Of a stretch of 64,000 nt of DNA, positions 21,001 through 24,000 are shown piece by piece. A program made the position numbers. The DNA comes from a cyanobacterium endosymbiont of Rhopalodia gibba (GTDB lineage: Bacteria; Cyanobacteriota; Cyanobacteriia; Cyanobacteriales; Microcystaceae): contig CP067995.1 of the NCBI GenBank assembly GCA_045159875.1, forward strand, positions 1,184,001 to 1,248,000, in the 5' to 3' direction. The stretch's first letter is position 1; each line of letters opens with the position of its first letter.

Positions 21001-24000
21001 ACACTGGAGTCGTAAGGAGATTTAACATCATGTCTGACTTAAGTTATGGTAAATCTGGGATAGCTACAGCAATCTCGTTATTAATTGGAATAACGGCAGT
21101 AAATCCCATTTATTTCTTAAAACCGGCAGCAGCTCAACTATTTTCTCTAGAAAATAACAATAACTCTAGTACCATTTCCAATGATGTAATAATTCCTCTC
21201 GGGACTCGAATTCCCCTCCGACACCAAGATGTTAAAAAAATTCTTGTCACTAACGAAGAAAGTCTTGAGATAACTCTAGAAACTGCGGCCAATGTTAAGG
21301 ATCGCTACGGTAATTTTTTGGTTCCGGTAGGTAGTAAAGTTATGGGCTTCATACAACCAGCTAATGGGGGAGCACAGTTTGTTACACGAGAAATTATCAT
21401 TGATAATCAACGGTATCCTCTTTATGCAAGTTCTAGGGTCGTGACTCGGACAGAAACTATTAATGAAGGTGCAAGTGTGGAGGAAATTTTAGGGGGAACT
21501 TTGGCCGGTTCTGCTGCTGCTGCTATTATTGCTGGAACGACTGGCGATCGCCGCATTGATGCTTTAGAAGTCTTAGCCGGCGCTGCGATAGGGACCCTGG
21601 CCGGATGGAGCTTACCAGAGTCCGGACTTATTGGAGGGAGTGAAACTCAGGTTATCTCTATTGATCCTAACCAAGATTTAGCTATTATTCTAGAGTCGAA
21701 TTTAACTTTAACAGGGAACAATAGGGGAAGTTATAAACGTTTTTAACAAAAATCATTGTGAAGACTGAGATAAAATAATTTGTGTATTTTCTATCTATTT
21801 TTTAAAGTAAGGTAAGTTTTGACAGAAAATTATGGATAAAAGAAGCAGTGGAAACTCTATATGCTATAAGCCTTATCTATTGACGTCTGATGCTATGGAG
21901 ATAAAATATTGTCCCGCTCTTACTGAAATATTTTGTGATCTAAATCACTATCTATGAAAAATTTGAACGGCGTTTTAATCTTGTTCCTAAATTGACATTA
22001 TTGATTTTGGCAAAAAAATTCCGTTTCCGTTTGAGTTTAGGTCAATTTATGACCATTAGAATTGCTTATCCTTAGTCAGAATGTTGAAACATTAAATAAT
22101 TTGATAAATTCCAAATTCTCCCTCATGACAAAAAAGCATTTCCTAAAGTTTTCAATGGGGTTTAAATCGAGAGAATAAGGAGATGAAACAAGACTTGTGC
22201 TCATATTGCATTAGTTCTCTACCTTCTGTTGCTTTATAAGCCAGTCAATTATTTATAACTACATAGGCCTCTGGCCAGGTTTGTGGTATCAGCACTCCTG
22301 TTTCATCAGTAAGAAAAGCTTTTTTATTGATCTATACTTAAAAAGTAAAAGGGGCTAACCCAATAGAATGAGCGGTTTTGATTGACCTAATTATTGGGAC
22401 ATTTTTAATAGACTCGTTCCCTTTTACTTGCTCTAGTACACTAACAAGTGATCGCTAGCTCAACTCCGGTTTCGTCAATCAAAACTATCTCTTAAAATTT
22501 TAATTGTTTTGGTCTTATTGTTGGGTTTTATGATTTTAGTGGGAATATCCATGGAGTACGGCTTTATTTTCTGTACGACTAATATTTTTTGTCTCTTCAC
22601 TTTAATCTACTCAAATCAAACCTTCTATCAGATCTTGTTCAACGAAAACGGATAGTTGCCTGACTGCTGGAGGACGATCACTAAATTTAATGAGAGCTAG
22701 ATACAATAGATCCTTGTGGCGTTTTCTAAAAATTTTATTCCAGTCTTCTTCATTAATTATTTGTAAAATAACCTAAAAAACAGGACAAAATGTACAAAAT
22801 TTCTTTTTGAATTCTAACTCATTGTTTAATTCCCCTTTCGGAGGAAGTTGTCCTTCTTCAGTGAAAAATTCTAGCAATAGTGTTAATAAAAGTTCATAGG
22901 ACTTAAAGCATTTCAGCTGGTATTGAATTCTATGGGTTAAAAAACTTGAATAAACTGTGAAAACACAAAATGCTTGTGCTTGGATTTCTTTTCGAGGTGC
23001 ACAATAGATTCCCAATTAGAAAGGAATAGAATCAACTTCTGCAATTTGAGTAGTTGATCAAAATAGGTCTTTAATTCTCCTCGTTCATAATTGTTTTGAA
23101 AAGCATTAAGACCGGTAATGATTATATGCCCATAATGGGACCGCGATTATGATCATTTCATTAATCAAGATTTTATAGGTTGATCTTCAAAAATTAAACA
23201 ACACTTCCCGCTGTTTAGCAAGGTCTTCGATAACGTTAATAGGATCACCTAAATTGATGGCATCAACAGAGATATGAGGAGTATCTTTGCCGTAATAGGA
23301 GTCCTATCTTTAACTTTTATATCCTGCTTCAGCAATACGATCAATCTCCCCACTAAGTAATTGTATCCATACTCAAAAAGTTGATTTCGGGGGTAAATAA
23401 CCTCGTTCATAAGACCAAACGGGTTGGCTGCAAGGAATTTTTTTATTTAATAACTGCTTTATTTCGTCCAATTTGGAGCTGTCTGTTTTTTGTTGAAGTG
23501 AGAAGATTAAGACGAGCCAGGGAATATCCTTCAAAAATTAATATGATGTTGGTCTAACCGGTTTTCCCATTCTAGACAGATTTCAATGAGATGTGACAAA
23601 CTCAACAAGAATATTTAAGGCTAAATTAGGGTGATGATCACCCTCAAAGTCTGAATAAAAAAGATAAAGTACTTTGAATTCATCGGTGCTAAATTTGATT
23701 ATGGTTACTTGACAAATTTTATTAGTAATTCGGAAATTTTTTCATTGTTTTATAAAATAAAGTCAAGAAATACTATTTTACTTCTATATATATAAGACGT
23801 TGGGTAAAATTTTATCAATTCTACTACTTTGGCAAGTATTAATGACAGTAATAATATAATTAAAAGTTAAAACAAATAAGTAATTATTGATCAATAATTA
23901 CTTATTTGTTTTAACTTTTAATTACTGTAGTAAAAGCGCATATTAATATAATATTTAATCTTAGAATTTTTTTGTTAAATTAAAGTAATTTAAGCAATAA

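What a model noticed while it worked through the whole genome (the two positions that open the first line are those of the whole stretch)
23857..23924. Hundreds of unique long perfect palindromes kept perfect by arm-to-arm correction
C1 carries 288 sequence-unrelated hairpin palindromes with perfect stems of 15-38 bp and loops of 0-8 nt (433 with stems >=12), nearly all in the decaying non-coding half of the genome; the example given is a perfect 68-bp one. I read them as DNA-level palindromes that are continually re-perfected by intrastrand/inter-strand template switching (arm-to-arm correction), a mutational process that has been switched on or unmasked in the diatom spheroid-body (diazoplast) lineage. 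New would be a so far undescribed, genome-wide mutational/structural signature of an organelle in the making, with possible roles as cruciform or hairpin sites for DnaA-independent replication or RNA 3' ends.
Evidence so far: Own scan: perfect stems>=12, loop<=8: 433 in C1 vs about 5 per Mb in an order-2 Markov shuffle; stems>=15: 288; >=20: 132. BLAST self-hits list 75 palindromes of 42-102 bp, none similar to another. 281 of 288 lie outside solid genes (49% of C1); 7.8% lie within 30 bp of a gene 3' end vs 3.0% of random non-coding places. Loop length of the 132 longest peaks at 0 (50) and 1 (26), which an RNA hairpin under selection would not need. 400-kb samples: stems>=15: this genome 30, two other spheroid-body genomes 37 and 42, free-living Rippkaea 4; per 100 kb lying outside ORFs of >=120 aa: 16.2, 19.2, 27.9 vs 4.3. 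Wider control: 79 loci of up to 23 kb around ileS from other cyanobacteria (1.48 Mb, 251 [...]
(Added by a program. Inside this text positions count along the whole contig: contig position 1,184,001 is position 1 of the stretch shown here. "Call 12" and the like, gene names such as g00115 and contig names such as C1 are that model's own, and its searches are not shown. The text may have been shortened before it was handed on; [...] marks where a part breaks off. The agent that wrote the report below was given it as the finding of a first reader that could run no searches.)

Follow-up and report, generated by a model that had tools for sequence, protein, structure and literature searches.

The report
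Template-switch palindromes in endosymbiont junk DNA
The hundreds of perfect hairpin-forming palindromes in this reduced cyanobacterial endosymbiont genome are real, and they are best read as scars of a known DNA-copying slip that writes one side of a hairpin from the other, accumulating in decaying non-coding DNA.

Summary
Window 23857-23924 is a perfect 68-bp palindrome. My own scan of contig C1 finds 435/289/133 perfect stems of >=12/15/20 bp, against 3-15/0-3/0 in shuffles. They are sequence-unique and AT-rich, and 277 of 289 lie outside long ORFs.

Comparison with four sister reduced genomes shows that one arm is written from the other:
- At the example locus, one relative has a single arm. 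Another relative and a closer strain from a metagenome have an old decayed right arm. Here that arm has been overwritten.
- At another locus, two lineages perfected the same decayed palindrome in opposite directions.
- Across 44 loci, lineage-specific changes cluster on one arm (p about 0.0015).
- Arms co-vary, and one-defect forms are 3-6 times too rare.

This is quasi-palindrome correction by short-range template switching. The process is known (PMC5941160, PMC8794818), but it occurs here at an unusual density: 0 and 3 stems >=15 per 400 kb in two free-living sisters, against 33-46 in the reduced genomes.

New lead: all five reduced genomes lack RNase HII and ExoVII (xseA) but keep RNase HI.

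No function is supported for the palindromes. Earlier notes of this scan describe the same phenomenon on other DNA.

The parts
23857..23924 (.). Perfect 68-bp palindrome: left arm 23857-23890, right arm 23891-23924, no spacer. The left arm is the template. The outer roughly 20 nt of the right arm are a recent reverse-complement overwrite.
   Evidence: G001 has only the left arm (41-column gap); G006 has both arms, decayed (17 of 34 pairs); a closer strain (X6, 8 differences in 126 nt) keeps the inner 14 nt of the right arm and then an old outer arm of the G006 type. That strain has the G006/G001 base at 23873 and the G006 base at 23863, where G000's derived bases are mirrored in its right arm.
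7848..7891 (.). Perfect hairpin palindrome, stem 21, loop 2.
   Evidence: G001 has a hairpin at the same place with different but mostly complementary arms (17 of 21 paired). G003 lacks 5 nt of the left arm.
14014..14048 (.). Perfect hairpin, stem 14, loop 7, in strongly conserved DNA.
   Evidence: the three relatives differ from G000 in the arms essentially by one base in the right arm, and that base completes the pairing in G000. A plain point mutation cannot be excluded.
16313..16344 (.). Perfect palindrome, stem 16, loop 0, centre TGATCA.
   Evidence: relatives have 10-13 of 16 pairs at the same place (quasi-palindrome).
20510..20544 (.). Perfect hairpin, stem 15, loop 5.
   Evidence: relatives have 9-13 of 15 pairs. 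G000-specific changes: 2 on the right arm, 1 on the left.
25308..25346 (.). Perfect hairpin, stem 17, loop 5. It lies about 60 nt beyond the stop of the minus-strand ORF 25407..26240.
   Evidence: Relatives align poorly (flank identity 0.28-0.55). Possible terminator position, not tested.
28603..28644 (.). Perfect hairpin, stem 19, loop 4.
   Evidence: against G001 the left arm is 19 of 19 identical and the right arm 14 of 19, so the right arm was rewritten.
28852..28883 (.). Perfect hairpin, stem 15, loop 2, inside a longer 73%-complementary inverted repeat (28830-28905).
   Evidence: against G003 and G001 the left arm is 12-13 of 15 identical and the right arm 8 of 15.
37388..37420 (.). Perfect hairpin, stem 13, loop 7.
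   Evidence: G006 has its own perfect 13-bp stem here; G003's is imperfect.
38487..38514 (.). Perfect hairpin, stem 12, loop 4.
   Evidence: No usable orthologous alignment.
45885..45918 (.). Perfect hairpin, stem 14, loop 6.
   Evidence: G003 has a perfect 16-bp stem at the same place.
47708..47743 (.). Perfect palindrome, stem 18, loop 0, centre GAGCTC.
   Evidence: relatives have 10-14 of 18 pairs (quasi-palindrome).

Best explanation
The palindromes are products of short-range template switching during DNA synthesis, also called quasi-palindrome correction. A growing strand leaves its template, copies the opposite strand (or itself) backwards for 12-40 nt, and then returns. The stretch it lays down is the exact reverse complement of its neighbour.

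Where no inverted repeat existed, this creates one, with or without a small insertion. Where an older, decayed inverted repeat exists, it overwrites one arm with the complement of the other and makes the palindrome perfect again. Either arm can be the template.

Because near-perfect palindromes are the best substrates, a locus can be re-perfected repeatedly while its sequence drifts. About 45-49% of this reduced endosymbiont genome is non-coding or pseudogene DNA under little selection, so the scars persist and pile up.

Shown: the reverse-complement overwriting of one arm, in both directions, at loci that stay palindromic across species.
Inferred: that it happens at replication forks, that half of the events cross between strands (loops of 0-2 nt cannot arise by simple fold-back), and that the rate, not only the retention, is raised.

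Most of the palindromes have no function. A few per cent sit at gene ends and may serve as terminators.
For: 1. The palindromes are real and far beyond chance: 289 stems >=15 against 0-3 in shuffles.

2. They are unique sequences built from local DNA. 177 of 191 arms match only their own partner. Stem GC is 0.226 against 0.280 for non-coding DNA.

3. History of the example locus. The tree places G001 outside G006+(G000,G003).
 - G001 has one arm.
 - G006 and the X6 strain have an old decayed right arm.
 - G000 has a perfect arm that mirrors G000-specific changes of the left arm.

4. G000 1022992. G006 and G001 keep an imperfect palindrome. G000 is perfect (stem 28) with a left arm of the old type. 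G003 is perfect (stem 25) with a right arm of the old type.

5. G000 1108991: a 19-nt insertion found only in G000 creates the right arm.

6. One-sidedness of lineage-specific changes.
 - 53 loci: smaller-arm sum 41 against 54.6 simulated, fraction <= observed 0.0006.
 - 44 loci with sister and outgroup agreeing: 23 against 32.8, fraction 0.0015.
 - Single loci: 0 vs 13, 10 vs 0 and 7 vs 1.

7. 69 of 97 assessable palindromes (>=15, four genomes) lie where a relative has >=50% of the pairs (55 at 50-89%, 14 at >=90%). Chance pairing is about 30%.

8. Co-variation: 149 pairs are changed on both sides yet still complementary, against 48 +/- 7 with shuffled partners (maximum 73 in 1000).

9. Deficit of slightly damaged forms: 125 perfect, 22 with one defect (10 of them mismatches) and 2 with two defects, against about 62 one-mismatch forms expected from equal residence times. 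Flank divergence on the terminal branch is 0.107 per site, so a 40-site palindrome would stay untouched with probability about 1% (my arithmetic).

10. Loops of 0, 2 and 4 nt occur 76:33:32 times. Free loop bases would give roughly 9:21:70 (my arithmetic), so the symmetry runs through the centre, as DNA copying would give.

11. The process is described elsewhere: PMC5941160 (abstract), PMC8794818 (abstract and introduction), PMC7202029 (abstract, as shown in the search listing).
Against: - The unpolarised left/right test was not significant (chi-square 99.6, 86 df, p = 0.15).
- Several loci show mixed left, right and double changes. These need more than one event or another route.
- Derived change in the arms is only modestly above the flanks (0.135 vs 0.107 per site).
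- The G001 sample shows no deficit of damaged forms (8 perfect, 4 one-defect, 2 two-defect).
- 58 of 155 palindromes could not be assessed.
- The alignments are MAFFT alignments of AT-rich DNA and can be off.
- The four or five genomes are kin, not independent.
- A few hairpins are conserved in all four species with compensatory changes (G000 1109144) or are textbook terminators (G000 1095131). There is also a 2.6-fold excess just downstream of ORF stops. Selection on RNA therefore explains a minority.
- No experiment shows the process happening.
Confidence: 0.78

Rival explanations
1. Birth only, no maintenance. Template switching makes each palindrome once, after which it simply decays. The many perfect ones reflect a very recent rise in the birth rate or a fast loss of palindromes.
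For: 28 of 97 assessable palindromes have no palindromic counterpart in relatives: 22 with same-length DNA <50% paired, and 6 with an arm missing. Only 21 of 580 resolved pairs changed on both sides on the terminal branch. The G001 sample shows no deficit of damaged forms.
Against: Loci stay palindromic across species (69 of 97), which argues against fast loss. At the example locus and at G000 1022992, an old decayed arm was overwritten. A simultaneous recent burst in five lineages would be needed.
Confidence: 0.12
2. RNA hairpins kept by selection, as intrinsic terminators, RNA-stabilising 3' hairpins or small RNAs. On this view the perfection reflects compensatory evolution.
For: G000 1095131 is a GC-rich stem followed by a T run, conserved in four genomes. 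G000 1109144 keeps 26-28 of 29 pairs in three relatives while its arms differ. 18 of 282 lie within 30 nt downstream of an ORF stop against 6.9 expected.
Against: - Only 2 of 289 have terminator features.
- A T run next to the stem occurs in 82 of 289 (28%) against 21% at random non-coding places.
- Half have loops of 0-2 nt.
- Stems are AT-rich.
- 277 of 289 lie outside long ORFs in decaying DNA.
- Most are perfect in one lineage only.
- Changes are one-sided blocks.
- No Rfam family is found in the window.
Confidence: 0.06
3. Functional DNA structures: cruciforms or hairpins used as start sites for DnaA-independent replication, or as protein-binding sites.
For: dnaA was not found in four reduced genomes and is a remnant with 11 stop codons in G000. 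A preprint states its universal absence (10.64898/2026.03.19.712447, passages seen).
Against: There is no shared sequence or position. Most are lineage-specific. The palindromes are as common on the 6.5-kb contig C2. Nothing ties any of them to replication.
Confidence: 0.03
4. Artefact of assembly or of whole-genome amplification, or a family of small mobile elements.
For: One published genome of this group was amplified with a multiple-displacement kit (PMC5638926, passage). Such kits make inverted chimeras (recalled).
Against: - Five separately assembled genomes have the same density.
- Orthologous loci carry related palindromes.
- An independent study's contig carries the left arm and centre unchanged.
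- The X1 unitig has 1.56 times the neighbouring depth, as a true palindrome should.
- No sequence families are found.
Confidence: 0.01

Closest known systems
Quasi-palindrome-associated template-switch mutations in Escherichia coli (Ripley model, recalled; Lovett laboratory reporters: PMC7202029 abstract as shown in the search listing; PMC6357072 passages)
   Same: Imperfect inverted repeats are made perfect in one step by copying one arm from the other during replication. Both leading- and lagging-strand routes exist, and nucleases that remove the displaced 3' end limit the process.
   Different: There it is measured as rare reversion events at engineered sites. Here it is seen as hundreds of fixed natural events with arms up to 38 bp, in a genome that lacks ExoVII (xseA) and RNase HII.
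Conserved perfect inverted repeats in Proteobacteria (Lavi et al. 2018, PMC5941160, abstract read)
   Same: Perfect inverted repeats are overabundant and stay perfect across species. The authors propose preferential correction of imperfect to perfect repeats by template switching.
   Different: Those are mostly short repeats in compact free-living genomes. Here they are long (15-38 bp), sequence-unique, concentrated in decaying DNA, and roughly nine times denser per non-ORF base than in free-living sister genomes (my arithmetic).
Template-switch mutations that create and maintain hairpins (Monttinen and Loytynoja 2022, PMC8794818, abstract and introduction read)
   Same: The four-point template-switch model. 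It creates a perfect stem in one event or fixes the pairing of an existing stem, and it yields multi-base compensatory changes.
   Different: That work concerns RNA genes under selection. Here the stems lie in apparently neutral DNA, so the mutational process is seen with little filtering.
Quasi-palindrome mutations in yeast lacking RNase H2 (Kim et al. 2013, PMC3820800, abstract read)
   Same: [quoted passage not shown] The reduced genomes have the same enzyme state: RNase HII not found, RNase HI present.
   Different: It is a eukaryote, the events were seen only under high transcription, and causality was shown by genetics. Here there is only a correlation resting on one evolutionary branch.
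Perfect coding palindromes in Nematomorpha mitochondrial genes (PMC6649704, abstract start seen in the search listing only)
   Same: Numerous long perfect inverted repeats in a reduced organelle genome.
   Different: Those lie inside protein-coding genes and reach 284 bp. Here 277 of 289 lie outside long ORFs.

Membership tests
Short-range template-switch / quasi-palindrome correction events | The new stretch is the exact reverse complement of adjacent DNA | tested here: met
   Perfect arms of 12-38 bp at 435 places. At G000 1108991, 19 nt inserted only in G000 form the right arm.
Short-range template-switch / quasi-palindrome correction events | A multi-base change is confined to one arm while the other arm keeps the ancestral sequence | tested here: met
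   Polarised tests: smaller-arm sum 41 vs 54.6 simulated (53 loci) and 23 vs 32.8 (44 loci). Single loci: 0 vs 13, 10 vs 0, 7 vs 1. The unpolarised test was not significant (p = 0.15), and several loci are mixed.
Short-range template-switch / quasi-palindrome correction events | An imperfect inverted repeat pre-exists at the site (for the correction type) | tested here: met
   69 of 97 assessable palindromes have >=50% of their pairs in a relative, and 28 do not. At the example locus, the X6 strain and G006 keep the old arm.
Short-range template-switch / quasi-palindrome correction events | It arises during DNA synthesis and depends on replication or repair factors | not testable with these tools
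   Correlation only. xseA and RNase HII were not found in 5 of 5 reduced genomes.
Intrinsic (rho-independent) terminators | GC-rich stem, loop of 3-8 nt, followed by a T run, at a gene's 3' end | tested here: not met
   2 of 289 meet stem GC >=0.45, loop 3-8 and a T run >=4. 18 of 282 lie within 30 nt of an ORF stop. The feature is met by a small subset, such as G000 1095131.
Repeated palindromic elements (MITE-, REP- or HIP1-like families) | Many copies share a consensus sequence | tested here: not met
   177 of 191 arms >=18 nt match only their own two arms. The 44 cross-hits among the 289 are 14-26-nt AT-rich matches. The free-living sisters do carry such a repeated 28-30-bp element.
Described RNA families (Rfam 15) | Match to a covariance model at its gathering score | tested here: not met
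   0 matches in the 64-kb window.

The most novel reading that the evidence does not exclude
On the stem branch of this endosymbiont clade, the loss of RNase HII (with RNase HI kept) and of exonuclease VII, perhaps together with the loss of DnaA-dependent initiation, switched the replication machinery into a state prone to template switching. Quasi-palindrome formation and re-perfection then became a major, clade-wide mode of sequence turnover in the non-coding half of an organelle in the making. This would be a natural counterpart of the yeast RNase H2 and E. coli exonuclease mutator phenotypes.
Probability: 0.25. Interest if true: 0.75.

Novelty: new member of a known kind. Interest (0 to 1): 0.5.

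Why it matters
The finding offers an unusually clean natural record of template-switch mutation. Hundreds of fixed events lie in near-neutral DNA, and five related genomes are available to polarise them. That record can be used to measure switch lengths, loop sizes, direction and rate per substitution.

It shows that 'compensatory' co-variation and conserved perfect hairpins can arise without selection. This is a warning for RNA-structure prediction and terminator annotation in reduced genomes.

It also gives a testable genetic hypothesis (loss of RNase HII and ExoVII) for why a young nitrogen-fixing endosymbiont accumulates such scars.

It does not reveal a new kind of element or a function.

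Tried and rejected
- Unpolarised comparison of differences on the left and right arm against the best relative: not significant (chi-square 99.6, 86 df, p = 0.15; smaller-arm sum 331 vs 335 simulated). It mixes changes of both lineages, so I replaced it with polarised tests.
- A gapped X-drop scan for imperfect hairpins ran on into AT-rich flanks (198 hairpins with 6 or more defects) and was discarded. The run-based scan replaced it.
- The first version of the orthologue pipeline hit the time limit and printed nothing. It was rewritten with batched BLAST.
- Repair genes that might have explained tolerance or origin are not lost. sbcD has an open 426-aa frame in G000 and is found in 21 of 21 genomes. 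recJ has two copies in 21 of 21. mutS and recQ are found in 13 of 13.
- xseA is also missing from the free-living G007 (3 stems >=15 in its 400-kb sample), G011, G014, G017, G018 and G020, and from the 87%-complete G005. Its loss alone does not explain the density.
- Reads. The RNA-library contigs of X2 have no cover left of the palindrome, and one begins at 23928 with adapter letters. Contigs cannot show RNA ends, so nothing is built on this. The X5 contig ends 15 letters past the centre, so it does not formally bridge the palindrome.
- Rfam: no family in the window.
- Look-alike stretches in earlier windows of the scan: none.
- tblastn with RNase HII proteins of G005 and G011 against G000: only noise, E >= 0.55.
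- Papers. Searching 'spheroid body' with 'palindrom' gave one irrelevant paper. The terms palindrom, inverted repeat and hairpin have no occurrence in 10.64898/2026.03.19.712447, PMC5638926 or PMC12377750; template switch, searched in the first and third, has none either. PMC5568474 is not held, and 'exonuclease' does not occur in PMC7202029. The role of ExoVII in E. coli is therefore recalled, not seen. For ExoI I saw only a reference title.
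Full report
**1. The observation**

Window 23857-23924 is a perfect palindrome of 68 bp with two 34-nt arms and no spacer. As single-stranded DNA it folds at -29.1 kcal/mol, against -6.85 +/- 2.15 for 200 shuffles.

The window lies on contig C1 of a 3.06-Mb assembly with 33.9% GC. My own scan of C1 for perfect stems with loops of at most 8 nt, counting each centre once, gives 435 stems of >=12 bp, 289 of >=15, 133 of >=20 and 5 of >=30.

- Chance controls: five local order-2 Markov simulations give 3-9, 0-1 and 0. Five shuffles in 100-nt blocks give 8-15, 0-3 and 0.
- Location: 277 of the 289 have their centre outside stop-to-stop ORFs of >=100 aa, which leave 45.3% of the genome uncovered.
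- Composition: stems are AT-rich (GC 0.226 against 0.280 for non-ORF DNA).
- Uniqueness: 177 of 191 arms of >=18 nt match nothing in the genome but their own two arms.
- The 64-kb window itself holds 12 such palindromes, 8 of them >=15.
- No Rfam family is found in the window.

**2. Not an artefact**

Five separately assembled reduced genomes of the same genus carry the feature at the same density, and orthologous loci carry related palindromes.

In public runs, the run that may be the source (X1) holds a 68-letter unitig identical to the palindrome. Its depth is 1.56 times that of its neighbours, as expected when both arms feed the same words. A contig from an independent study (X5) covers 23709-23905 without a difference. 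It reaches 15 letters past the centre, which is short of a formal bridge.

**3. Relatives and tree**

The genome search found four further reduced genomes (G001, G003, G004, G006; 2.5-3.1 Mb) and larger, presumably free-living genomes of the same genus (G002, G005, G007).

A mutS+recQ tree (4,290 columns, rooted with G008) gives (G007,(G002,((((G003,G000)100,G006)93,G001)80,G004)100)100). The reduced genomes are therefore one clade with G002 as sister.

A quartet count on 52 conserved blocks agrees: 793 sites for (G000,G003)|(G006,G001) against 312 and 299 for the alternatives.

I fetched 400 kb from each of G003, G006 and G001. These samples are syntenic with G000 1.02-1.34 Mb.

**4. History of the example palindrome**

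In the alignment:
- G001 has only the left arm, with a 41-column gap where the right arm would be.
- G006 has both arms, but decayed (17 of 34 pairs).
- G003 and G004 have lost the region.

With G001 outside G006+(G000,G003), the simplest history is a single-copy ancestor followed by one inverted duplication before the G006/G000 split.

Run X6 holds a closer strain, with 8 differences in 126 nt. Its left arm has the G006/G001 base at 23873 and the G006 base at 23863. Its right arm shares only the inner 14 nt with G000. Beyond that, its 25-letter tail matches G006's old right arm at 19 of 25 positions without a gap. It does not match G000's arm. This last comparison was made by eye.

So in G000 the outer roughly 20 nt of the right arm were recently replaced by the complement of G000's own left arm, including its lineage-specific substitutions. 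A 14-bp perfect core became a 34-bp one.

**5. Other single loci**

- G000 1022992: G006 and G001 keep an imperfect palindrome. G000 is perfect (stem 28) with the old-type left arm and a rewritten right arm. G003 is perfect (stem 25) with the old-type right arm and a rewritten left arm. The two corrections were independent and ran in opposite directions.
- G000 1029500: G000 and G006 have a rewritten right arm. G003 and G001 keep another, imperfect one.
- G000 1108991: 19 nt present only in G000 create the right arm (a new palindrome made by insertion).
- G000 1082686 and window 28852-28883: one arm was replaced without a change in length.
- G000 1148623: a new left arm comes with the loss of more than 100 nt.
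- G000 1109144: a hairpin present in all four genomes, with compensatory differences.
- G000 1095131: a classical terminator, conserved in all four.

**6. Systematic analysis**

The four syntenic samples hold 155 palindromes of >=15 bp (33, 46, 40 and 36). For each I anchored both flanks in the other genomes and aligned the locus.

58 were not assessable: no usable orthologue, flank identity below 0.6, anchors more than 60 nt away, or an interval above 300 nt. The other 97 fall as follows:

| Class | Count |
|---|---|
| A relative has a quasi-palindrome with 50-89% of the pairs | 55 |
| A relative has >=90% of the pairs | 14 |
| Relatives have same-length DNA with <50% pairing | 22 |
| One arm missing in all usable relatives | 6 |

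Chance pairing in this DNA is about 30%. About seven in ten of the palindromes therefore sit at long-lived palindromic loci, and about three in ten look newly made.

*Which arm changed?*
- An unpolarised comparison was not significant (p = 0.15).
- Polarising by the majority of at least two relatives (53 loci) gives 97 left-only, 84 right-only and 33 double changes. The sum over loci of the less-changed arm is 41, against 54.6 simulated (fraction at or below observed 0.0006; chi-square 82.1, 47 df).
- Requiring the sister and an outgroup to agree (44 loci, 580 resolved pairs) gives 60, 55 and 21, with a smaller-arm sum of 23 against 32.8 (fraction 0.0015).
- Left and right arms are overwritten about equally often.
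- Individual loci show 0 vs 13, 10 vs 0 and 7 vs 1. Others are mixed.

*Co-variation.* Across 3,098 focal-relative pair comparisons, 267 pairs differ on both sides (184 expected if the arms were independent). Of these, 149 are still complementary, against 48 +/- 7 with shuffled partners (maximum 73 in 1000).

**7. Kept perfect, or only born perfect?**

The flank divergence on a terminal branch is 0.107 per site. A palindrome with 40 paired sites would therefore escape change with a probability of about 1% (my arithmetic). Nearly all perfect long palindromes must have been made or re-made late on their own branch.

If they then simply decayed, forms with one defect should be about as common as perfect ones. 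A run-based scan (>=20 pairs in total, runs of >=5) finds, in G000, 125 perfect, 22 with one defect (10 mismatches, 12 one-base bulges) and 2 with two defects. About 62 one-mismatch forms are expected.

| Sample | Perfect | One defect | Two defects |
|---|---|---|---|
| G003 | 22 | 4 | 0 |
| G006 | 19 | 3 | 0 |
| G004 | 16 | 6 | 0 |
| G001 | 8 | 4 | 2 |

G001 shows no deficit. Shuffles give none at all.

Fast deletion of palindromes could also produce such a deficit. It is contradicted by the persistence of palindromic loci across species.

My reading is that near-perfect palindromes are corrected preferentially, while decayed ones are re-perfected only occasionally. This is inference, and a recent rise in the birth rate is not excluded.

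**8. DNA level, not RNA level**

- Loops of the 289 are distributed 76, 37, 33, 32, 32, 30, 20, 20 and 9 for 0 to 8 nt. If a 4-nt RNA loop were free to vary, about 9% would look like loop 0 and 70% like loop 4 (my arithmetic). The observed 76:33:32 for loops 0, 2 and 4 shows that the symmetry runs through the centre.
- Loops of 0-2 nt (146 of 289) cannot arise by simple fold-back of one strand. They point to a switch onto the opposite strand (inference).
- Only 2 of 289 have terminator features.
- 18 of 282 lie within 30 nt downstream of an ORF stop against 6.9 expected (maximum 14 in 200 draws). A small subset may serve as, or have been co-opted as, terminators.

**9. Why so many here?**

Per 400 kb, stems of >=15 number 33 (in 430 kb), 46, 40, 36 and 38 in the five reduced genomes, against 0 in G002 and 3 in G007. 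For stems >=20 the counts are 13, 23, 19, 8 and 18 against 0 and 0.

Per 100 kb outside ORFs, the reduced genomes have 17-29 stems of >=15, against 0 (64 kb) and 5.8 (52 kb). Pooled, that is about 23 against 2.6. For stems >=20, 11.5 would be expected in the free-living non-ORF DNA and none is seen (my arithmetic).

The few palindromes in the free-living genomes are a repeated 28-30-bp element, a HIP1-bearing hairpin and a terminator. Non-coding DNA of free-living genomes is short and under selection, so retention ('unmasked') and rate ('switched on') cannot be separated with these data.

Gene content gives a lead:
- sbcD, recJ, mutS and recQ are kept.
- xseA (exonuclease VII) was not found in any of the five reduced genomes but is present in their sister G002. 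It is also missing from the free-living G007, G011 and others.
- RNase HII (PF01351) was not found in 5 of 5 reduced genomes, nor in G019, and was found in 15 of the other 16. tblastn finds no remnant in G000.
- RNase HI is present in 21 of 21.
- dnaA is intact in the free-living genomes and not found in four reduced genomes. In G000 it is a remnant with 11 stop codons. This agrees with a preprint's statement that dnaA is universally absent (10.64898/2026.03.19.712447, passages).

[quoted passage not shown] In E. coli, 3' exonucleases limit template switching. For ExoI I saw only a reference title. The role of ExoVII is recalled.

All these losses map to one stem branch. This is one evolutionary observation among many gene losses, and so a hypothesis, not a finding.

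**10. What is known**

- The correction of imperfect to perfect inverted repeats by template switching was proposed for Proteobacteria (PMC5941160, abstract).
- It is modelled as four-point template-switch mutations that create and maintain hairpins (PMC8794818, abstract and introduction).
- It is studied with reporters in E. coli (PMC7202029, abstract as shown in the search listing; PMC6357072, passages).
- It is described in yeast (PMC8604942, PMC13100816, abstracts in the search listing).

I found no mention of palindromes, hairpins or inverted repeats in three genome papers on these endosymbionts, nor in a full-text search.

Earlier notes of this scan already describe the same phenomenon in this genome, in two other genomes of this group and in insect endosymbionts. 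They agree with my reading. I tested the claim myself on this genome and its relatives.

**11. Verdict**

The process is a known one, seen here at exceptional density and with unusually clear comparative evidence. No function is supported. The link to the loss of RNase HII and ExoVII is the most novel reading that remains open.

Noticed in passing
G000 contig C2 (6,464 bp, 26.4% GC), outside the window: A small second contig carries 6 perfect palindromes (5 of >=15 bp, one with a 35-bp stem at 2143-2218). That is about ten times the density of C1. Its ORFs begin like FeoB, FeoA and a membrane channel, named by eye and not searched. It has no similarity to C1.
   Followed up: partly
G000 C1:2619293-2619965 (outside the window): A decayed dnaA remnant with 11 stop codons. 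The four other reduced genomes gave no dnaA match at all, and the free-living relatives have an intact gene.
   Followed up: partly
G000 C1:1108991-1109748 (outside the window): Three long perfect palindromes (stems 24, 29 and 25, all with loop 0) lie within 760 bp. One is newly made by a 19-nt insertion. One is conserved in four genomes with compensatory changes. One has no counterpart in relatives.
   Followed up: partly
window 23928: A contig of an RNA library (X2) begins at 23928, four bases beyond the palindrome, with sequencing-adapter letters attached. Contigs cannot show RNA ends, so this is only a hint that some molecule ends beside the hairpin.
   Followed up: no
L075-L114 (samples of G007 and G002): Both free-living sisters carry the same 28-30-bp GC-rich perfect palindrome at unrelated places, which points to a repeated element family. 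G004 has a diverged copy.
   Followed up: no
window 21000-27000 against relatives: G003 and G004 have lost most of the 3.4 kb of non-coding DNA between the two conserved genes that flank the example palindrome. Stretches of it (query 1140-1630) resemble many other places in the reduced genomes at 65-85% identity, as a decayed dispersed repeat would.
   Followed up: no
G019 (relative of the same order, 4.8 Mb, 99% complete): This is the only larger genome among the 16 in which RNase HII (PF01351) was not found. It could serve as an independent test of the RNase HII idea.
   Followed up: no
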